This document shows, piece after piece, positions 85-35,638 of a DNA stretch of 64,000 bases (position 1 is the first letter of the stretch; every line of letters starts with the position of its first letter). A model generated the notes under the pieces. That model had not been told where the DNA came from, searched no databases, and saw nothing but the letters and a program-made list of their open reading frames with translations. The position numbers and the translations under genes were made by a program. Source of the stretch: an uncultured Gemmatimonadota bacterium (lineage in GTDB: Bacteria; JAAXHH01); the NCBI GenBank assembly GCA_951812955.1, contig OX638340.1, positions 1,216,001 to 1,280,000 of the forward strand. Direction: 5' to 3'.

Positions 85-2088
85 ATGTCCCATCTCACCA
101 TAGGCACGGCAGGTCACGTCGACCACGGCAAGAGCGCCCTGGTCGAGGCACTCACAGGTGTTCATCCCGACAGCCTCAAAGAAGAGAAGGACCGGGGCAT
201 GACGATCGACCTTGGGTTCACCTTCTTGCAGATGAGCGATGGCCGGGAGGTTCCCATCGTGGACGTGCCGGGCCACGAGCGGTTCCTCAAGACCATGGTC
301 GCGGGCGTGAGCGGCATACATCTCGTGCTCTTCGTCGTGGCCGCCGACGAGGGCGTGATGCCACAGACGGTGGAACATCTCGGTACGGTTAAATACATGG
401 GGGTCGGCGAGGGCATCGTCGTCCTGACGAAATGCGACCTGGTCGACGAGGAATGGCTGATGCTCGTCGAAGAAGATGTGAACTCGCTCGTATCCGGCTC
501 GTTCCTGGAGAGCGCGCCTGTCGTCCGGGTGTCCTCGATCGAGGGCACGGGGATCGACAGGCTGAAGGAGACCGTCGAGGCGAAGTTGAACGGGATTGCG
601 GTCGACGACGACGCGGGCTACTTCCGATTGCCCGTCGACCGCGTATTCTCCATGAAGGGCTTCGGAACGGTCATAGCCGGCACCGTCCTTTCGGGCAGCC
701 TGGAAGCGGATGGGGACACCGAACTGCTCCCTGCCGGGACGCCGCTGAGGGTCCGGGGCATGCAGAGTCACAATGACTCGGTCGATCGTGCCGAGAAAGG
801 ACAACGGGTAGCGCTGAACGTCTCGAATATCAAAACGAGCGACATACAGCGTGGCGATGAACTCGGCACACCCGGATACCTGCTTCCGACATCAATGACC
901 GATGCACAGTTGCAGTGCCTGGAATCTCTTGAAGAACCCCTCAAGAATCGGCAGCGCGTACGTCTGCACAAGGGTACCAGCGAAACGATCGGCAGATTGA
1001 TCCTCCTCGACAGGGACGAACTGGCCCCCGGCGAAACGGGATTCGTGCAGCTTCGCTTGGAGAGACCCATCGTGGCGGAACGGAACGAACGCTTCATCAT
1101 CCGCGGGTTTTCTTCCATGCGGCTGCTCGGCGGCGGACGATTCTTGGAAGTGTATCCTCAAAAGAACCGCCGTTTCCGCCAGACCGTCCTGGACTACCTG
1201 GAAGCGGTGACCGACGCGGAGCCGGATGTCCTGGTAGAACGGGTCATGCGGCACGCCTACGGTGAACATCGGCTCAAATCCATGCAGGACCTCGTTCGAT
1301 CCACGAACTTGAGCGGCGACGTGTTGCAACGGTCCGTGACCCGTTTGGAAGAAGAAGGTGTACTCGTACGGTTCCAGGACCGGCGGTTTCTGCACAATCA
1401 CTGGTACGCCGCCTTGAAGGACGAACTGGTCGTTGCGCTCGACAAGATGCACCGTGACCAGCGACTAAAGGACACCTTGCCCAAGGACGCCCCGAAGCTA
1501 CAGCTATCCTGGGAAGCGCCCGATACCGTCTACGATACGCTGCTCAAGGATCTCGACGAGGAATCCAGGATCGTACTGTCCGGTCGGTCGATCCGCCTGT
1601 CCACGCACGACGTTACATTGACGAGTCAGGAGAAGCGCGTTCTCGAGGCGTTCGAGGAGTTGGCCGAGGCCGATCCACCGGCCGTATTTTCGATGAACGA
1701 AATCACCCAGGTTATGGAAGATCGATCAATCGTCCCAGGGGATTTACCGGTTGATCTGAAGTCAAGCCAAGATATGATTAGGAGTATGGCGGCCTACGCG
1801 CTAGAGCTTGGAATCTTCGTCGAGTTCGCGGAGCGCCAGATCATGCATCACCAGGGGCTAGATGGGGTCAGGGAAAGCCTGGTGAACTATCTGAAAAACC
1901 ATGGAACGGTCCGGGCTTCCGAGTTCCGCGGCCACCTGGGTATCTCCCGCGCGGACGCCACCGCGTTGTTGGACTACTTCTGCGACCTGGGCGTGACCAA
2001 CCGGGAATCGGGGACGCATCGGCTGGCTGGCGAGGACGGGGACGGTGGACAGGACGGGGACGGTGGCCAGGAGGAAGATCGCGGATAA
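85..2088 (+). CDS. selB: Selenocysteine-specific translation elongation factor SelB
   Basis: 667-aa ORF. The N-terminal GTPase has motifs GTAGHVDHGKS (G1), DVPGHERF and TKCDL (NKxD-like). The long C-terminal extension of ~300 aa is typical of the SelB winged-helix mRNA/SECIS-binding domains. It lies immediately upstream of tRNA-Sec. Confidence 0.9.
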   Translation: MSHLTIGTAGHVDHGKSALVEALTGVHPDSLKEEKDRGMTIDLGFTFLQMSDGREVPIVDVPGHERFLKTMVAGVSGIHLVLFVVAADEGVMPQTVEHLGTVKYMGVGEGIVVLTKCDLVDEEWLMLVEEDVNSLVSGSFLESAPVVRVSSIEGTGIDRLKETVEAKLNGIAVDDDAGYFRLPVDRVFSMKGFGTVIAGTVLSGSLEADGDTELLPAGTPLRVRGMQSHNDSVDRAEKGQRVALNVSNIKTSDIQRGDELGTPGYLLPTSMTDAQLQCLESLEEPLKNRQRVRLHKGTSETIGRLILLDRDELAPGETGFVQLRLERPIVAERNERFIIRGFSSMRLLGGGRFLEVYPQKNRRFRQTVLDYLEAVTDAEPDVLVERVMRHAYGEHRLKSMQDLVRSTNLSGDVLQRSVTRLEEEGVLVRFQDRRFLHNHWYAALKDELVVALDKMHRDQRLKDTLPKDAPKLQLSWEAPDTVYDTLLKDLDEESRIVLSGRSIRLSTHDVTLTSQEKRVLEAFEELAEADPPAVFSMNEITQVMEDRSIVPGDLPVDLKSSQDMIRSMAAYALELGIFVEFAERQIMHHQGLDGVRESLVNYLKNHGTVRASEFRGHLGISRADATALLDYFCDLGVTNRESGTHRLAGEDGDGGQDGDGGQEEDRG

Positions 2089-2160: not shown

Positions 2161-2259
2161 GGGGAGTGTATGGGTTGCTGGTGCGCCTCACGGACTTCAA
2201 ATCCGATGGCGGGCCCTAAACAGGTCCGTGGTGGGTTCGATTCCCACACGCTCCCCCCA
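2161..2259 (+). tRNA. selC: tRNA-Sec (anticodon UCA), selC
   Basis: 99 nt, beginning GGGGAGTG and ending CACGCTCCCC(C)CA. It has an 8-bp acceptor stem with one G-U pair and a long variable arm. The anticodon stem-loop GGACTTCAAATCC is identical to E. coli selC, with anticodon TCA reading UGA. It sits 72 bp downstream of selB. Confidence 0.9.
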
Positions 2260-2477
2260 GTGTATTTCCCATACCAATTAGTACGTAATCTAACTTCATA
2301 ATATCATCGTTCCTGATTTTATAAAGGAGAACTGCAGGCATATAATACACCGAGTGTGGTTATACCTCTGTCGTGGGGGTCGTGCAATATCCGGTCGCCA
2401 AACCCAACAGATTTCCGGCTATTCAATTTACAAACTGCAGTTTATTTGCCGTGGACTTATCTGATTAAGGAATTACG

Positions 2478-2990
2478 TCAATGGGGATGATTCTCAGGAC
2501 GTATCTTTAACCATTCGATTTTCTTTAATACACCAATTACCGCTTCTGTGTAGATTTCCTTCGTCGGCCAACTCTGTTTTTTGTTAATATATGCTTCTAT
2601 AAATGGTCGGTTAGTTTTAAGAAAGTGGTAAATAGACTCTTTCATATCAAAGCTTAATTCGGACGAATGATGAGATAAAGCGATATCAAGTTGCAACAAC
2701 ATGTGTTGGTAACTTCTATATCGCGCTTCATCCAGTTCACTACCACTTATTGGTCTGCGTTTACCGATTTCCCCGACTTCCGTAGACCTTATGGTAAATG
2801 ATTCCGGATTCAATATCTTAGAAATTTGGGTTACTATGATACCCCGAATTTGTTTTGCCTGTTGAGAGCGTCTATATCGACGGGAAAAAAATGTTTTTGT
2901 TGCCAAAACTGCTGCGACAATTATACCTATCAATATCCCATTCTGTATTTCTGTTAAACTGTTGTAATTCATAGATATACAATCTCCCAC
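2478..2990 (-). CDS. Hypothetical protein with N-terminal transmembrane helix, encoded in the AT-rich islet
   Basis: 170-aa ORF (GTG at 2990, or ATG at 2972 giving MNYNSL...). It has the hydrophobic segment GILIGIIVAAVLA, low-GC codon usage unlike the host genes, and no recognisable family. Confidence 0.4.
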   Translation of the reverse strand: MGDCISMNYNSLTEIQNGILIGIIVAAVLATKTFFSRRYRRSQQAKQIRGIIVTQISKILNPESFTIRSTEVGEIGKRRPISGSELDEARYRSYQHMLLQLDIALSHHSSELSFDMKESIYHFLKTNRPFIEAYINKKQSWPTKEIYTEAVIGVLKKIEWLKIRPENHPH

Positions 2991-3074
2991 ACTGGTAATT
3001 CGGCCTTTACTCTCTCGATTAGTTCACGGACCTGGGACTGAAAGTAGCTTATATTAAAAGTTACAATCAGGTTT

Positions 3075-3097
3075 TTCGATTCCCACACGCTCCCCCA
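3075..3097. repeat. attR-like direct repeat of the tRNA-Sec 3' end
   Basis: TTCGATTCCCACACGCTCCCCCA matches 2238-2259 of tRNA-Sec, with one C fewer in the C-run. Confidence 0.7.
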
Positions 3098-3115
3098 ACC
3101 AAAAAGGAATAACCC

Positions 3116-3724
3116 TTGACCCGAAAGGCCGGTCAACCCGCGACAAAACCTGTCGAACCTGATACACAGCCCGGCATGCCCATGGAAATCCTGGGCATGT
3201 ACCTCTTCATCGCCAGCGAACTGATCATCTTCATCACGCTGCTCTTCATCCTGTTCTGGCTGAGGTCGGGTCTCGTAGCGGAATGGCCTCCACCGGACCA
3301 GCCCCGGCTACCCATCGGGATCACGGGTATAAACACCCTGTTTCTACTGGTAAGCGGCTACACCATGCACCGGGCATACCAGGCCGTGAAGCGGAATGCC
3401 TCCCGCCAGCTGACCCGGTGGCTGATGATAACGTGCGTACTGGGCGTGGTCTTCCTCACGGTCCAGGGCTTCGAATGGATCCGGCTGATTCGCTTCGGGC
3501 TGAGTATGACCTCGAGTCTGTACGGCGCCATGTTCTATTCGATCATCGGACTCCACGCGGTCCACGTACTCGCCACCGTGCTCGTCCTGCTCTACCTCTG
3601 GGTTCGGTCCTCCACCGGCGTCTATACCGCTGATAAACACATGGGCGTCGTACTGGGCTACATGTTCTGGCTCTTCGTCGTCCTCATCTGGCCCATCCTC
3701 TACATCCTGGTCTACCTGGTATAA
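3116..3724 (+). CDS. Cytochrome c oxidase subunit III-like (heme-copper oxidase subunit III family) membrane protein
   Basis: 202 aa with about five hydrophobic helices. Sequence resembles small CoxIII/CyoC-type subunits (FEWIRL, GLHAVHVLATVLVL). It is GC-rich like the host. Starts at TTG 3116, with an alternative ATG at 3176. Confidence 0.5.
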   Translation: MTRKAGQPATKPVEPDTQPGMPMEILGMYLFIASELIIFITLLFILFWLRSGLVAEWPPPDQPRLPIGITGINTLFLLVSGYTMHRAYQAVKRNASRQLTRWLMITCVLGVVFLTVQGFEWIRLIRFGLSMTSSLYGAMFYSIIGLHAVHVLATVLVLLYLWVRSSTGVYTADKHMGVVLGYMFWLFVVLIWPILYILVYLV

Positions 3725-3882
3725 ACCGACTAACCTGAACACAACGATGGATAGAAACCAAAAAGCTGTGCTATCTATACAACGTGCAAAACCCCCTCAG
3801 AGTATAGGTTTGTTTTCTACACTACACAAATTGGGACAGGTCTGCATTGCGGGGTTAATATGATCACATCCATGCAGAAAAC

Positions 3883-4566
3883 TCAATATGCCAGAACTCC
3901 AGTTTTATCGACAATCCAGTCGATCATGCAGCGGAAGCATGGACACTGTTCGCCACCTCTCTCGTCAAACAAAACTTCTGATAAGTCTGCTTTGTTTAGA
4001 ATGGTGTGGCAGTCCGATATTTCTCGGTAGGATCGTTTAAGTTTGGTACGAAACAACTGCTCAACAATCCTTTTGGGGGGATTGTCTTGGTTTTGTTCTT
4101 CGGGAGGTAGTCGCCAACCCTGAGGTTTGGTGCTCATCTTGAGTTGCGACTGCAGGTGATTCGGTGTTGCGAGAAGCAACATTTCCAAGTCGTGTTTCAA
4201 TGCACTAGGGTAAAATCGAGATAAACAACTTTGAACCTCATTCGGTCTAGCCCGTGCAGGCAATTCCCTCTTCACCAACATTCTCTGTAAGTCTTTAAGT
4301 TCTCGAAGGTTTCTGTGCCTAAACTCTGTATTCTCATAATAACGATTGGGGTAAAGATCGGGTAACCCTACGACAAGATCATTCTCATCATTCAACAGCT
4401 TTTCGGCTCCTCTAGGTCCAATTTTACGGAAAAACTTTGATTTGTTTTCGAGTGAAATCGTCTGTATACCCCATCCATTTACTCTAAGTATTGATATCCA
4501 GTCTCCCCACAGCGCAGATAGCGCTTTACAGTCCGACTTACCTTCCAAGTAGACCCACACCTTCAC
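3883..4566 (-). CDS. Small partner protein of the ATPase (possible Toprim-like/DUF4276-like effector), hypothetical
   Basis: 227 aa. Its GTG start overlaps the TGA of the upstream reading frame (GTGA). The N-terminus VWVYLEGKSDCKAL is an acidic E-G-x-S-D motif reminiscent of the Toprim-like small partners of OLD/AAA_21 ATPases. It has two C-terminal Cys pairs (CPCFRC). Composition is low-GC. Confidence 0.5.
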   Translation of the reverse strand: MKVWVYLEGKSDCKALSALWGDWISILRVNGWGIQTISLENKSKFFRKIGPRGAEKLLNDENDLVVGLPDLYPNRYYENTEFRHRNLRELKDLQRMLVKRELPARARPNEVQSCLSRFYPSALKHDLEMLLLATPNHLQSQLKMSTKPQGWRLPPEEQNQDNPPKRIVEQLFRTKLKRSYREISDCHTILNKADLSEVLFDERGGEQCPCFRCMIDWIVDKTGVLAY

Positions 4567-4717
4567 GCACCTGCCTCCAGTTCGCCAGATCTATGAAGGT
4601 CGCCTAAGGTTTCGCCGGAGACGTCTTCAAGCATTTGCATCAGTGCGCTGCGACTCGAGGGGCGATACCACCTGACTTTCGAGTCGTCCAACGTGCGAGT
4701 CATAACGGCTACATCAT

Positions 4718-5863
4718 CTATACCAATATACCAAAGCAGTCGAGCAGGTCTGGGCTATGGGTTGTCACGAGCACCTGTGCACGCTCTGCAGCAGACTTGA
4801 TCATTTCCGCCACTATCGGCAACAGGCCGGGATGAAGTCCCAACTCCGGTTCGTCTATAGCTATCAGTGGAGGAGGAACTGGATTCAATAGCGCAGTCGC
4901 CAGACACAGGAACCGCAACATACCGTCAGAGAGTTCCCACAGGTACATGGAACGGGAGATTCCTTTTTCTCGTATCCCGACCAGAGCTTGCGGAGGAGTT
5001 CCGTAGGTAGTTTCGCAATGGATATCCTCGAATGTGGGATACGACACGCGCAGGTATTCGTGTAAGTCCTCTGCAGTCGAACGATAGTCGTATCGTGTCA
5101 GAATTTCGTGTAGCACTGTACCCAAATTGTCACCCACTGACGTCAACATCGTATCCCGTTTTATATCCGCTGGTTTTGATCTAAGCGCAGAAGACCAGGT
5201 GACGTCAAAGCCCGGGTAAAATGCCATACCTGCCAACAAAAACCTAGCGACAGCGGGAATTGGAAACTCATTAAAGAACCTTATCTGGGAAAGTAATAGA
5301 GCCATTTCTTGTTGTGCGGCTATTCCGCGTTCCTGATTCTTTTCTGCCGAACTGGATTCCTGCACCGCAGAAGGTTCGGGCTGCGCAACATCAAAAGGAA
5401 TCAAACGGTGTTTTTCTCTGTCAAATACTTGCCTTCTATACTGTGTTGCCTCCAGAAACTTTAGTGATTCATCATGGCCTGTATACGGATTCAGATTCCT
5501 GAGAACTTCATACTCAGGTTGCATCTGTCCATCCACATTCACTTTCAAAACAACTTCGTACTTTAGTGGGTTATCATTCTGTAGTGGTAGATCATTCCAT
5601 CGAGGAGTCCTTGGTCTACAAAAATCAATCTTCCAACTCAATCGATCAGTGCTGTTGCCCGCCGTAAGCATAGATTGAGCGCCTCGATGCCAACTAAGAG
5701 CAGTTTCTATCGGAAAGTCACAACATTCTCTTATTAACCTTAGGCAATCGATCAGCGAACTCTTGCCGCTAGCATTCGCACCGATTACCACCGTCAAAGG
5801 CTTAAGGTCAGCCTTAAAATCGCTGAGGAGCCGGTAGCCACTTACCTCGATATTCATGATCAT
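4718..5863 (-). CDS. ABC-type ATPase of the AAA_21/OLD-like family (possible 3' frameshift; see findings)
   Basis: 381 aa. It has Walker A VVIGANASGKSS, Walker B/D-loop LIAIDEPELGLHP and the H-loop TTHSPDLL typical of AAA_21/OLD N-terminal ATPases. Low-GC island gene. Confidence 0.8.
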   Translation of the reverse strand: MIMNIEVSGYRLLSDFKADLKPLTVVIGANASGKSSLIDCLRLIRECCDFPIETALSWHRGAQSMLTAGNSTDRLSWKIDFCRPRTPRWNDLPLQNDNPLKYEVVLKVNVDGQMQPEYEVLRNLNPYTGHDESLKFLEATQYRRQVFDREKHRLIPFDVAQPEPSAVQESSSAEKNQERGIAAQQEMALLLSQIRFFNEFPIPAVARFLLAGMAFYPGFDVTWSSALRSKPADIKRDTMLTSVGDNLGTVLHEILTRYDYRSTAEDLHEYLRVSYPTFEDIHCETTYGTPPQALVGIREKGISRSMYLWELSDGMLRFLCLATALLNPVPPPLIAIDEPELGLHPGLLPIVAEMIKSAAERAQVLVTTHSPDLLDCFGILV

Positions 5864-6182
5864 GATCTACCACCTTAAGCTTACTCTCGAAGGTCCATAG
5901 ATCTTCTACTGAGTTAGAATACGATGCACTCCGCCAGAAGGTATCAAAATCTAGATTCAAATATACATAGTCATTCTTTCAATTACAATCTCGTTGACAG
6001 TGTTGAATCTTGGTACGTCAGAAAGGTCATGAAGACACATGAGAAGATGACTCGGTTGAACCTACAAGTTTACCATTTATTTATTGTTGTAGTTCAGGCT
6101 AATTTCAATCTGTGTTATGGGCATAAAGGAAGATCCAAAAACAGTGGAAGATGAACAAAGCTCACTGAGACATGAAGGTTCT

Positions 6183-7013
6183 TCACCTGAAATCCGCGAT
6201 GGATGAAAGATATTCGTAGCTCTGGCGGGCGGCGTCTTCGGGTTCCATGAGCTCGGCAAAGGCCTGGTGCACGGTGACGTAACCGTCGTATTCCAACTCC
6301 TCAAGCGTCCGCATGATGACGGGGAAATCGATCCCGCCCGTTTCCTGGAGTGGAACCGGATCGTGGGGCGCGGGTCCTCGTACCCAGGTGTTCAGGGTCA
6401 TGGATCCATCGGGATTCAGGCGGTGGTTCTGCAGGTAGACGTTGAAGAGCCAGGGCTCGAAACGCTTTATGGTTTCCGGACCGTAATCCTGGCCGCACAG
6501 ATCCAGGTTCGCCGGTTCGTAGATGATGCCGAAATTCTCGCGACCGACCTGTTTCAGCACCGAAACCGACTCCTCCACGGTTTCAAACAGGCTGCGGGTA
6601 TGAGACTGGTGGGCCAGCCGGATGTCCCGTTCGGCCGCCTCGTCCGAAGCCCACCGCACCCAGGCGATATCTTCTTCCGTCTTCATGCCGATCCGGATCA
6701 GGTCGGCGTCCAGCAATTCTGCCAGGTCCAGGTAGGGCGTGATGTTCCGCAAGGCGTCCGGGGCGTGTTCGTCATTTGCGGGAATGGGGATGTCTCCCGT
6801 AACCATTGAAACGGGGAGATCCCGATCATCGAGGATCTTCCGTACGGCTGTGATCTGTTCCAGCGGCGACTTGATGCCGGCCTGGGAAGCCCGCATGCAC
6901 ATGGCGGAGTATCCGATCTCCAGCGCCAGGTCGGCCAGGTGTTCCATGGATCGGTTGGCTTCTTCCTTGTTCAGAACGGATTCGGCGACGCGTACGGACA
7001 ACGAGAGCTCCAT
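6183..7013 (-). CDS. Sugar phosphate isomerase/epimerase (xylose-isomerase-like TIM barrel) family protein
   Basis: 276 aa. Overall similarity to the AP-endonuclease-2/xylose-isomerase-like TIM barrel family. Confidence 0.55.
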   Translation of the reverse strand: MELSLSVRVAESVLNKEEANRSMEHLADLALEIGYSAMCMRASQAGIKSPLEQITAVRKILDDRDLPVSMVTGDIPIPANDEHAPDALRNITPYLDLAELLDADLIRIGMKTEEDIAWVRWASDEAAERDIRLAHQSHTRSLFETVEESVSVLKQVGRENFGIIYEPANLDLCGQDYGPETIKRFEPWLFNVYLQNHRLNPDGSMTLNTWVRGPAPHDPVPLQETGGIDFPVIMRTLEELEYDGYVTVHQAFAELMEPEDAARQSYEYLSSIADFR

Positions 7014-34206: not shown

Positions 34207-34308
34207 CGAGGTTCCTACCCCGTTACCTTCCGATCCGCCTCGAGGTTCCTACCCCGTTACCTTCCGATCCGCCTCGAGGTTCCTACCCCGTTTCCTTCCG
34301 ATCCGCCT
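34207..34308. repeat. 3 x 34-bp perfect/near-perfect tandem repeat (CGAGGTTCCTACCCCGTTACCTTCCGATCCGCCT)
   Basis: Copies lie at 34207-34240, 34241-34274 and 34275-34308 (one substitution). It sits between convergent genes, and the last copy overlaps the permease's C-terminal codons. Confidence 0.85.
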
Positions 34309-35638
34309 CCCGATTGATCCTGCGAAACAGCAGGTACAGGGGATAACTCAGGACGACCACGACGAGCGCCGTCAGGCTGACTCCCGTGCCGCCCATGATA
34401 TTGCCTGCCAGAAACGCCAGGGCGGCGGCGAGTGTCAGTGCCGTGGTCCACGGATATCCCCAGGCACGATAAGGCCGGGGAAGGTCCGGTTCCTTTCGTC
34501 TGAGGATAAAAACGGAAAGGAACAGGATGGCGTAGTTGACCACGGTAAAGAACGCCAGGGCCTCCACCAGCCGCACGAAACTCCCGCTGAACAGCAGGAA
34601 GATGATCGTAGCCGCCAGGCTGGCCAGGAGCGCCACTGTAGGCGTGCCGCCCTTGTTAACGCGGCGGCACTGCCAAAAGAAGAGTCCATCGGTGCTCATG
34701 GCGTAAATCACACGGGCCGCAAACATGTACCCCAGGTTGATCCCCACGATCATGAACCCGGTCACAAAGGCTGTGATGAGTGTCTCCGCGAGTGGCCCGA
34801 AAACGGCTTCCACGGCCCGGCCCACGGCCAGTTCGGCCCCCACGATTTCCGACATGGGCAGCATGCGTAGAACGGCTATGTTGATGAGCAGATACACCGC
34901 GATGACGATCCCGACGCCCATGAACATCGACCGGGGAATCGTCCTGCCGGGGTCTTCCATCTCCTCCGAAAAGTAAGCGGTGAATACCCAGCCATCATAC
35001 GCGTAAAGCACCCCTCTCAGCGCCACGATGAAGGCAACGACCACGGTCCATCCCGTGGGCATGGACGGAGAAGCGGCCGCCTCGACCTCCGAACCTTCAC
35101 TACCCGTCAGCAGGAAGCAGGCGATGATGAGCACGGCGAAGATGACCGCCTTGATCATGCTGGCGACGTTGTGCACGCCGGTTCCCCATTTCACGCCCCT
35201 CCACTGAATCACGGCGAAAGAAACCGCGATTCCCAGGCAAAGCGATAGGCTGAACTGGGGTATGCCTGCGTTGAGGAGATGTAGATACTCGTTGATCACG
35301 ATGATGGTCATGGCTGTCGCGCCGCACCAGTTCAACCAGTCGGTCCAACCGCTGACGAACCCGACGAAGGGTCCGAGGGTCCGGTGTGCGTAGACGTAGT
35401 AGGCGCCGGCGCGCGGCAGTGCTGTGGCCAACTCGGCGGCGGAAGCCGTGCTGAATATCACGAACACACCCGCCGCTATCCAGGTGGCCATGTACCACCA
35501 CGGATCGGGCAGCTGGGCCGCCACTTCACCCGGCGCTCTGAGAATGCCGAGGCTGACGATGCCGCCGAAGGTGATGGCCAGTCCCGTGATCAGGCCGAGG
35601 ACGCGCAGCAGCCCGCCAGGGGAAGACGAGGAAGACAT
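34283..35638 (-). CDS. Amino acid permease (APC superfamily transporter)
   Basis: 451 aa with about 12 TM segments and APC-type N-terminal motifs (GAGIF-like: ITFGGIVSLGIL...). Confidence 0.8.
   Translation of the reverse strand: MSSSSSPGGLLRVLGLITGLAITFGGIVSLGILRAPGEVAAQLPDPWWYMATWIAAGVFVIFSTASAAELATALPRAGAYYVYAHRTLGPFVGFVSGWTDWLNWCGATAMTIIVINEYLHLLNAGIPQFSLSLCLGIAVSFAVIQWRGVKWGTGVHNVASMIKAVIFAVLIIACFLLTGSEGSEVEAAASPSMPTGWTVVVAFIVALRGVLYAYDGWVFTAYFSEEMEDPGRTIPRSMFMGVGIVIAVYLLINIAVLRMLPMSEIVGAELAVGRAVEAVFGPLAETLITAFVTGFMIVGINLGYMFAARVIYAMSTDGLFFWQCRRVNKGGTPTVALLASLAATIIFLLFSGSFVRLVEALAFFTVVNYAILFLSVFILRRKEPDLPRPYRAWGYPWTTALTLAAALAFLAGNIMGGTGVSLTALVVVVLSYPLYLLFRRINREADRKETG

What the first reader, a model, noticed from the sequence alone, without database searches (positions are those of the whole stretch)
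4564..4745. Apparent -1 frameshift at the 3' end of the ATPase gene; out-of-frame 57-codon tail ends precisely in the GTGA overlap with the partner gene
The annotated ATPase ORF stops at 4718, just after TTHSPDLLDCFGILV. A different frame on the same strand is open from 4762 down to 4564. It encodes ...LLWYIGIDDVAVMTRTLDDSKVRWYRPSSRSALMQMLEDVSGETLGDLHRSGELEAGA, and terminates with a TGA that overlaps the GTG start of the downstream partner gene.

AAA_21 ATPases normally continue 40-70 residues past the TTHSP motif. The true protein therefore probably switches into this frame. The cause could be a sequencing indel, a genuine inactivating frameshift (the module would then be decaying), or programmed recoding.
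Basis: seen in the sequence. Interest (0 to 1): 0.5.

Follow-up and report, generated by a model that had tools for sequence, protein, structure and literature searches.

The report
Defence ATPase broken by 8-bp duplication
An 8-base tandem duplication has frameshifted the ATPase gene of a two-gene candidate anti-phage cassette, cutting off its conserved last 52 residues; this is an ordinary, recent gene-inactivating mutation, not programmed recoding.

Summary
The ATPase ORF (5863..4718, minus strand) stops after ...DCFGILV. The -1 frame continues to a TGA that overlaps the GTG start of the DUF4276 partner gene (GTGA, 4566..4563).

The cause is an exact tandem duplication, TTGGTATA|TTGGTATA (4734..4719), inside the F-G-I codons. 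Deleting one copy restores a 430-aa ORF.

- All 119 other top homologs (424-478 aa) cover that ORF end to end.
- The tail alone matches residues 379-430 of a homolog at E = 3e-23.
- A sibling genome (L081) has the same cassette at 96.7% nucleotide identity. It has one TTGGTATA and an intact 430-aa gene, and the 8 bp is the only indel in 1,981 nt.
- 51 of 54 related loci have a single ORF.

Recoding is rejected. There is no slippery heptamer and no stimulatory RNA structure, and the two-frame layout is not conserved.

The cassette is PADLOC candidate HEC-01, an OLD-like ABC ATPase plus a TOPRIM/DUF4276 protein. The lost tail carries two predicted terminal beta-strands and the near-invariant LGDLHRSGELEA motif. 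The early stop also uncouples translation of the partner. No further decay is visible, so the lesion looks young.

An assembly artefact cannot be excluded without reads. Ordinary; low interest.

The parts
4718..5863 (-). Truncated HEC-01A ABC-ATPase ORF. It is 381 aa including 2 aberrant residues (L-V), with TAG at 4720..4718. It keeps Walker A (GANASGKS), the signature motif (LSDGM), Walker B (IAIDEPE) and the H-loop (TTHS).
   Evidence: Pfam AAA_21 E = 1.3e-35 over residues 23-375. PADLOC HEC-01A E = 1.9e-54. Invariant columns.
4719..4734 (-). The lesion: an exact tandem duplication of TTGGTATA (copies at 4734..4727 and 4726..4719) inside the codons for F377-G378-I379. There is no flanking microhomology.
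   Evidence: period-8 identity runs exactly 16 nt. (sibling L081 has a single copy; window bases 4734..4727 are the only gap in a 1,981-nt alignment).
4563..4721 (-). Stranded C-terminal coding segment in the -1 frame: codons I379..A430 plus TGA (4565..4563). It encodes two predicted terminal beta-strands, a helix and the near-invariant LGDLHRSGELEAGA motif.
   Evidence: 67% identity, E = 3e-23 to residues 379-430 of P0012. (E382-387, E394-397, H402-414; moderate confidence). (profile aligns query 333-407 to Thermus OLD 6p74 residues 272-349).
3883..4566 (-). Partner gene, a DUF4276 (TOPRIM-superfamily) protein of 227 aa. It has a GTG start and is intact.
   Evidence: Pfam DUF4276 E = 9.2e-10, 39.5 bits against a cutoff of 30.2. 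The sibling orthologue P0123 is also 227 aa. tblastn gives one frame, full length, 93% identity.
4563..4566 (-). GTGA stop/start overlap between the ancestral ATPase frame and the partner (translational coupling signal). A GGAGG Shine-Dalgarno sequence lies at 4578..4574, 7 nt upstream of the GTG.
   Evidence: Read directly. The [A/G]TGA overlap is present in 42 of 51 intact related loci.
3740..6182 (.). The whole low-GC cassette (about 44-50% GC against 57-64% in the flanks), inserted between COX3 (3116..3724 +) and AP_endonuc_2 (6183..7013 -). The block of about 97% identity with sibling L081 spans roughly 3650..6040.
5960..5988 (-). Only sigma-70-like consensus match upstream of the ATPase start (TTGTAA-17-TATATT). 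It is weak, and such matches are not more frequent here than in shuffled sequence.
   Evidence: 2 found against 4.0 expected. A candidate only.

Best explanation
The locus is a two-gene HEC-01-type cassette. It encodes an OLD-like ABC ATPase (HEC-01A) that is translationally coupled to a DUF4276/TOPRIM protein (HEC-01B).

In this genome a recent 8-bp tandem duplication (TTGGTATA x2) inside codons F377-I379 of the ATPase shifted the reading frame. Translation now ends two codons later, at TAG 4720..4718.

Shown:
- The product lacks the last 52 residues that every relative retains.
- The ancestral frame is still open and still ends in the GTGA overlap with the partner.
- A sibling genome has the intact allele.

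Inferred:
- The truncated ATPase keeps its nucleotide-binding motifs. It loses the two terminal beta-strands of the ABC core and the invariant C-terminal LGDLHRSGELEA motif, so it is probably misfolded or unable to work with its partner.
- Ribosomes now terminate 152 nt upstream of the partner's start. Coupled translation of the TOPRIM protein is therefore lost, and only initiation on its own GGAGG site remains.
- The net effect is loss of function of the cassette, which is the usual fate of dispensable or costly defence genes.

The lesion is young. The tail and the partner show no stops, no further indels and no excess of derived substitutions.
For: Lesion and repair:
- Exact duplication at 4734..4719; removing one copy gives a 430-aa ORF.

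Homologs:
- The alignment reads CF(G/D)I(D/A)DVAVM...LGDLHRSGELEAG(A/V) in all of them.
- The tail alone scores E = 3e-23.
- PADLOC HEC-01A profiles align to residues 421-428 of 430.
- 20 of 20 distant relatives (28-32% identity) keep 58-69 residues after the H-loop.

Intact allele:
- The 90% cluster holds a 430-aa member, P0121, on a 3.83-Mb contig.
- Its syntenic locus L081 has one TTGGTATA. The 8 bp is the only indel in 1,981 nt at 96.7% identity.

Family layout:
- 51 of 54 related loci have a single ORF, and 42 have the [A/G]TGA overlap.

Local assembly quality:
- The 12 other syntenic genes all match the sibling's proteins full length, in one frame and without gaps.
- The only other 8+8 tandem repeat in the window (35368) sits in frame inside an open 451-aa ORF.

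Age of the lesion:
- Derived amino-acid changes, window against sibling: head 4 vs 3, tail 1 vs 1, partner 2 vs 4.

Structural role of the tail:
- The model puts strands at 382-387 and 394-397 and a helix at 402-414.
- The profile aligns residues 333-407 with the Thermus OLD ATPase 6p74.
- Fold neighbours are OLD, GajA, PtuA, Rad50 and AriA.

Family identity:
- The literature describes HEC-01 as an ABC ATPase plus a TOPRIM protein, and DUF4276 as a Toprim-superfamily member.
Against: - No reads are available, so the duplication has not been verified at the read level.
- No second dataset carrying the duplicated allele was found.
- Loss of function is inferred, not measured. The truncated protein retains all catalytic ATPase motifs.
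- The structure model is of moderate quality only (mean pLDDT 56.6, about 60-64 over the tail).
- dN/dS is 0.59 for the tail and 0.58 for the partner, against 0.18 for the head. These values rest on very few substitutions (2S/4N and 7S/15N) and cannot be assigned to either lineage.
- The only published test of a HEC-01 system showed no anti-phage activity, so what function is being lost is itself unproven.
Confidence: 0.8

Rival explanations
1. Assembly or consensus artefact, or a minority variant promoted to the consensus. On this reading the organism really carries a single TTGGTATA and an intact 430-aa gene.
For: - The allele is seen in one assembly only; P0001 is on 1 contig.
- No independent copy was found in the metagenome collection.
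- The tail and the partner show no decay, which is what an artefact would also give.
Against: - An exact 8-bp tandem duplication in non-repetitive, non-homopolymer sequence is not a typical error of any sequencing platform (general knowledge).
- 12 of 12 neighbouring syntenic genes are intact.
- The only other 8+8 tandem repeat in 64 kb does not disrupt its ORF, so there is no sign of a systematic duplication artefact.
Confidence: 0.12
2. Programmed -1 ribosomal frameshifting, or another form of recoding, joins the two frames to make a full-length ATPase with a 3-residue insertion (...CFG-ILV-IDD...).
For: - The two frames overlap by 12 codons (4754..4718).
- The tail ends exactly at the conserved GTGA junction.
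Against: - There is no X_XXY_YYZ heptamer in the overlap window. The only two in the gene are at 5216 and 5126, far upstream.
- RNA downstream of the site folds no better than shuffled sequence: z = +0.53, with 136 of 200 shuffles folding at least as well.
- Rfam finds nothing there.
- The two-frame layout is absent from the sibling and from 51 of 54 relatives. It is therefore a fresh lesion, not an evolved feature.
Confidence: 0.02
3. The truncated ATPase is a functional, selected variant. For example, it could be a de-regulated form, or one that frees the TOPRIM partner.
For: - All nucleotide-binding motifs and the full Pfam AAA_21 domain (residues 23-375) are retained.
- The partner gene is intact and has its own Shine-Dalgarno sequence.
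Against: - None of about 140 relatives examined is naturally truncated at this point.
- The lost motif LGDLHRSGELEA is nearly invariant down to about 46% identity.
- The other broken copies (L053, L055, L034/L082) are broken at different places, as expected for random decay.
Confidence: 0.05

Closest known systems
HEC-01 (Hma-embedded candidate 01; PADLOC-DB; Payne et al., bioRxiv 10.1101/2024.01.29.577857)
   Same: Two-gene layout with an ABC ATPase (AAA_21/AAA_15 by Pfam) followed by a TOPRIM-like protein. The repaired ATPase matches five HEC-01A profiles at E = 1.9e-54 to 3.4e-39, nearly end to end. The partner is DUF4276.
   Different: - The ATPase here is frameshifted.
- The partner matches a PADLOC HEC-01B profile only weakly (E = 0.0056).
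- The cassette lies between housekeeping genes, not inside an Hma system.
- HEC-01 itself gave no protection in the published assay, so the family's function is unproven.
OLD-family nucleases, e.g. Thermus scotoductus class 2 OLD (PDB 6p74), and Gabija GajA
   Same: ABC ATPase core combined with a TOPRIM nuclease. These are the best sequence-profile and fold matches among solved structures. The lost tail aligns with 6p74 residues about 300-349, within its ATPase region.
   Different: OLD and GajA are single polypeptides with a fused TOPRIM domain and about 11-14% identity to this protein. Here the two functions are on separate, translationally coupled genes.
PARIS (AriA ABC ATPase + AriB TOPRIM; PMC11464382)
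   Same: Two-gene ATPase plus TOPRIM architecture within the same AAA_15/AAA_21 radiation. A PADLOC AriA model hits at E = 8.5e-35.
   Different: The partner here is DUF4276. That paper's domain list gives DUF4435 (PF14491) and DUF4276 (PF14103) as separate partner families; that AriB is the DUF4435 type is my recollection. The AriA hit is to a profile of the same length and coordinates as the generic Pfam AAA_21 match (304 positions, residues 23-375). PDB AriA aligns only over residues 314-376.
MADS Mad3/Mad4 (methylation-associated defence system)
   Same: The pairing of an AAA-type ATPase with a DUF4276 protein. Mad4 is a DUF4276 homologue according to PMC12065111. The NCBIfam MAD3 model hits at E = 1.7e-30.
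   Different: The score of 106.5 bits is far below the equivalog cutoff of 420. No other MADS genes were seen among the immediate neighbours, which are housekeeping genes.

Membership tests
HEC-01 (PADLOC candidate system) | ATPase matched by HEC-01A profiles over its full length | tested here: met
   The repaired 430-aa sequence hits PDLC04175 at E = 1.9e-54 (residues 2-421) and PDLC04182 at E = 8.7e-49 (residues 3-428, profile positions 5-402 of 406).
HEC-01 (PADLOC candidate system) | Adjacent TOPRIM-like HEC-01B partner | tested here: inconclusive
   Pfam DUF4276 passes its gathering cutoff (39.5 against 30.2 bits), and the literature places DUF4276 in the Toprim superfamily. The PADLOC HEC-01B profile hit is only E = 0.0056. 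The partner's catalytic residues were not checked.
HEC-01 (PADLOC candidate system) | Both genes intact | tested here: not met
   The ATPase is split over two frames by the 8-bp duplication. The partner is intact.
HEC-01 (PADLOC candidate system) | Anti-phage activity | not testable with these tools
   The published test of a HEC-01 representative was negative against the phages tried.
ABC ATPase fold (OLD/Rad50/SMC-like) | Walker A, signature motif, Walker B, D-loop and H-loop in order, plus an ABC fold | tested here: met
   Invariant G28-K34-S35, S312-D313-G314, D337-E338 and H369. Top fold hits are 6p74 OLD, GajA, Rad50, PtuA and AriA at E = 1e-8 to 3e-12. The model is of moderate confidence.
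ABC ATPase fold (OLD/Rad50/SMC-like) | Terminal strands after the H-loop complete the core sheet | tested here: not met
   In the window's 381-aa product these strands are missing. In the repaired protein they are predicted at 382-387 and 394-397 and align to 6p74.
PARIS (AriA/AriB) | DUF4435-type TOPRIM partner (AriB) | tested here: not met
   The partner hits only DUF4276 in Pfam and has no AriB hit in PADLOC.
MADS Mad3 | NCBIfam equivalog score at or above the cutoff | tested here: not met
   106.5 bits against a cutoff of 420.
Programmed -1 ribosomal frameshift | Slippery X_XXY_YYZ heptamer in the frame-overlap window | tested here: not met
   None between 4754 and 4718.
Programmed -1 ribosomal frameshift | Stable downstream RNA structure | tested here: not met
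   MFE -30.9 kcal/mol against a shuffle mean of -32.7; z = +0.53.
Programmed -1 ribosomal frameshift | Two-frame arrangement conserved in relatives | tested here: not met
   The sibling and 51 of 54 loci have one ORF. The three broken ones are broken elsewhere.

The most novel reading that the evidence does not exclude
The 8-bp tandem duplication could act as a reversible off-switch. Slippage between the two copies would delete one of them precisely and restore the intact gene. A population could then hold a costly or autotoxic ATPase-TOPRIM defence cassette in a silenced but recoverable state.

Points consistent with this, though they do not demonstrate it:
- The tail and the partner are intact.
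- The cassette was acquired recently by allele exchange.

A separate untested idea is that the 8-bp direct repeat is a footprint left by excision of a transposon that makes 8-bp target-site duplications.
Probability: 0.04. Interest if true: 0.45.

Novelty: new member of a known kind. Interest (0 to 1): 0.15.

Why it matters
Mostly for annotation.
- The 381-aa product should be flagged as a frameshifted pseudogene of a 430-aa HEC-01A ATPase.
- The cassette should not be counted as an intact defence system in surveys.

It also gives a small, clean natural example of defence-gene turnover. The same chromosomal slot holds different HEC-01 alleles in close relatives, one allele was recently exchanged between lineages, and it was then knocked out by a simple duplication.

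The intact sibling allele and the broken window allele differ by one lesion at the C-terminus. That makes them a ready-made pair for testing what the invariant C-terminal motif of this uncharacterised ATPase family does.

Tried and rejected
- **Programmed frameshifting.** Rejected: no slippery site, no structured RNA, no Rfam hit, and the layout is not conserved.
- **Looking up the 381-aa product on its own contig.** The gene-position index had no record of it, either from the window reference or as P0001.
- **Searching for independent copies of either allele in JGI metagenomes.** The exact junction pattern, which allows 0-8 inserted bases, found nothing. The protein route found only a 64% relative (L082) and a 33% fragment.
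- **Testing for relaxed selection after the frameshift.** dN/dS in the tail (0.59) and the partner (0.58) is higher than in the head (0.18), but the counts are tiny. Polarising the changes with 31-33 outgroups showed no excess in the window lineage. No decay signal can be claimed.
- **Flanking repeats or att-like sites at the cassette borders.** Only short matches at chance level were found.
- **Promoter and terminator scan.** Nothing above the shuffle expectation.
- **Treating the 8+8 repeat as significant in itself.** Rejected: 2 observed against 0.93 expected.
- **Systematic duplication artefact.** The other 8+8 repeat is in frame inside an open ORF.
- **Structure prediction.** With a shallow 24-sequence alignment it gave only mean pLDDT 56.6. 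It was used for secondary structure and fold class only.
Full report
**1. The observation**

On the minus strand an ORF runs from ATG 5863 to TAG 4720..4718. It is 381 aa long and ends ...VLVTTHSPDLLDCFGILV.

The -1 frame is open for 63 codons, from 4754 to 4566. It reads PRPARLLWYIG-IDDVAVMTRTLDDSKVRWYRPSSRSALMQMLEDVSGETLGDLHRSGELEAGA and stops at TGA 4565..4563.

That TGA overlaps the GTG (4566..4564) that starts a 227-aa ORF, 4566..3883. The description is otherwise correct.

Sixty-three open codons out of frame would occur by chance about 5% of the time. The open frame alone is therefore not strong evidence.

**2. The lesion**

The text around the stop reads GAC TGC T**TTGGTATA****TTGGTATA**G ATG. 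This is an exact tandem duplication of eight bases, at 4734..4727 and 4726..4719. The period-8 identity runs exactly 16 nt, so there is no flanking microhomology.

Deleting one copy fuses the two frames into a single 430-aa ORF, ...SPDLLDCFGIDDVAVMTRT...GELEAGA*. Its stop is the GTGA overlap.

So the "-1 frameshift" is a +8 insertion. Exact 8+8 tandem repeats are not rare in themselves: there are two in the window against 0.93 expected. The other one, at 35368, lies in frame inside an open 451-aa ORF. What singles this one out is its position at the frame switch and the comparative evidence below.

**3. What the genes are**

- The repaired protein hits Pfam AAA_21 (E = 1.3e-35, residues 23-375) and AAA_15.
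- In PADLOC it hits several HEC-01A profiles almost end to end: E = 1.9e-54, with alignments reaching residues 421-428 of 430.
- The partner passes the Pfam DUF4276 threshold (E = 9.2e-10). It hits a PADLOC HEC-01B profile only weakly (E = 0.0056).
- NCBIfam's MAD3 model scores 106 bits against a cutoff of 420, so this is not a MADS equivalog.

The literature describes HEC-01 as an ABC ATPase plus a TOPRIM protein. It was found embedded in Hma systems, and no defence was detected against the phages tested (bioRxiv 10.1101/2024.01.29.577857). DUF4276 is placed in the Toprim superfamily (PMC12065111).

**4. Do homologs continue through the tail?**

Yes, without exception.

- Of the 120 best database hits, the only 381-aa protein is the window's own product, P0001. 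The other 119 (63-70% identity) are 424-478 aa and cover 100% of the repaired query.
- In the alignment the junction reads CF(G/D)-I-(D/A)-DVAVM and the C-terminus reads LGDLHRSGELEAG(A/V). Positions 417-429 are at least 90% conserved.
- The 52-aa tail alone aligns to residues 379-430 of P0012 at 67% identity, E = 3e-23.
- Among 54 related genomic loci, 51 have one intact ORF. In 42 of these the stop overlaps the partner's start as [A/G]TGA.
- Even the relatives at 28-32% identity keep 58-69 residues after the TTHS H-loop, with an LG-[DEQK]-[LM]-x-x-x-G motif.

**5. An intact sibling allele**

The 90%-identity cluster of P0001 contains a second member, P0121. It is 430 aa long and sits on a 3,828,015-bp contig.

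Its locus, L081, is syntenic with the window. The order is PhyH, NUDIX, AP_endonuc_2, then ATPase and DUF4276, then COX3.

Over the two genes the window and L081 are 96.7% identical. The only indel in 1,981 aligned bases is the extra TTGGTATA (window 4734..4727). This establishes the single-copy state as ancestral.

**6. Real mutation or artefact?**

This cannot be settled without reads. The points bearing on it are:

- An 8-bp duplication in non-repetitive sequence is not a typical platform error (general knowledge).
- All 12 other genes shared with L081 match in one frame, full length and without gaps. Only the ATPase splits across two frames.
- No independent dataset with either allele was found in the JGI collection.

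I put a genuine mutation at about 0.8 and an artefact or minority variant at about 0.12.

**7. Recoding**

Recoding is rejected on four grounds.

- The 12-codon overlap window contains no X_XXY_YYZ heptamer.
- The RNA from 4745 to 4630 folds no better than shuffled sequence (z = +0.53).
- Rfam finds only tRNA-Sec, elsewhere in the region.
- The two-frame layout is absent from the sibling and from nearly all relatives.

**8. Consequences (inferred)**

The truncated product keeps Walker A, the signature motif, Walker B and the H-loop. It loses everything after G378.

The AlphaFold model of the repaired protein is of moderate quality: mean pLDDT 56.6, and about 60-64 over the tail. It places two beta-strands (382-387 and 394-397) and a helix (402-414) in the lost segment.

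The family profile aligns residues 333-407 with residues 272-349 of the Thermus OLD nuclease 6p74. The nearest folds are OLD, GajA, PtuA, Rad50 and AriA.

These strands correspond to the "terminal strands" of the ABC ATPase core topology cited. Losing them together with the invariant C-terminal motif should cripple folding or partner interaction.

The new stop lies 152 nt upstream of the partner's GTG. The conserved stop/start coupling is therefore broken, and only the GGAGG at 4578..4574 remains to drive partner translation.

**9. Age**

Between the window and the sibling, dN/dS is 0.18 for the head, 0.59 for the tail (2S/4N) and 0.58 for the partner (7S/15N).

Polarising the differences with 31-33 outgroups shows no excess of derived changes in the window lineage: head 4 vs 3, tail 1 vs 1, partner 2 vs 4.

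There are no further stops or indels. The lesion is recent.

**10. Context**

The cassette is a low-GC island in a fixed slot between AP_endonuc_2 and COX3. The same slot is occupied in L081, L009, L003, L006 and L033.

The genome closest to the window by its flanks is L009, at 94.6% nucleotide identity over 5.7 kb with flank proteins 96-98% identical. Its cassette is only 68% identical to the window's.

L081 is more distant by its flanks (79-86% nucleotide identity, pS 0.41-0.44). It carries the near-identical cassette (pS 0.05-0.09).

The cassette allele was therefore exchanged between lineages recently, and the duplication came after that.

Other copies of the family are also decaying, at different points. 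The ATPase is broken in L053, L055 and L034/L082, and the partner is broken in L055 and L052.

**11. Verdict**

This is a frameshifted, probably recently inactivated member of a known candidate defence family.

The cause is an 8-bp tandem duplication, an intact allele exists in a sibling genome, and recoding is excluded.

The finding is ordinary, with low interest.

Noticed in passing
window 3650..6183; L009, L081, L003, L006, L033: The HEC-01 cassette occupies one fixed slot between AP_endonuc_2 and COX3 in several related genomes, but its alleles do not follow the flanks. L009 has flanks 94.6% identical to the window and a cassette only 68% identical. L081 has flanks 79-86% identical and a cassette 96.7% identical. 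The identity break against L009 falls exactly at 6183, the stop of AP_endonuc_2. This points to recent exchange of the cassette between lineages.
   Followed up: partly
L053 6001-7294; L055 6001-8184; L034 and L082 (ATPase 3' end); L052 partner start: Other members of this ATPase family are also broken, each at a different place. L053 has a frameshift near residue 300. L055 has frameshifts in both the ATPase and the partner. In L034 and L082 the ATPase stop is lost and translation reads on into ...WRFGSLLKEGQTFPHLTLCTAVGSKN. The L052 partner has an in-frame stop (VTIWV*VEG). About 6-8% of loci look decayed.
   Followed up: partly
window 4566..4610: The near-invariant C-terminal peptide LGDLHRSGELEAGA is encoded by the same bases that carry the partner's Shine-Dalgarno sequence (GGAGG, 4578..4574) and its start codon. 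Part of the conservation may therefore reflect a double constraint, on the protein and on translation initiation.
   Followed up: no
window 2162..2259 (+) and 2260..3115; L081 12746..19209: A tRNA-Sec gene lies just downstream of selB (85..2088), according to both ARAGORN and Rfam. The stretch between it and COX3 is variable. The window has a low-GC (37-43%) 170-aa orphan ORF (2478..2990, minus strand) with no family hit and no match in any related locus. The sibling instead has about 6 kb there, with an MCP-like sensor-domain protein, a 1147-aa Calx-beta/SWM-repeat protein and an HTH_21 transposase fragment.
   Followed up: partly
window 35368..35383: This is the only other exact 8+8 tandem repeat in the window (AGGGTCCG x2). 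It lies inside an open 451-aa ORF (34283..35638, minus strand) and does not interrupt it.
   Followed up: yes
window 2034..2070: Period-6 tandem repeats at the 3' end of selB encode a GDGGQ-DGDGGQ acidic, glycine-rich C-terminal extension. The sibling's SelB is 651 aa against 667 aa in the window, and the tblastn match covers only residues 1-648.
   Followed up: no
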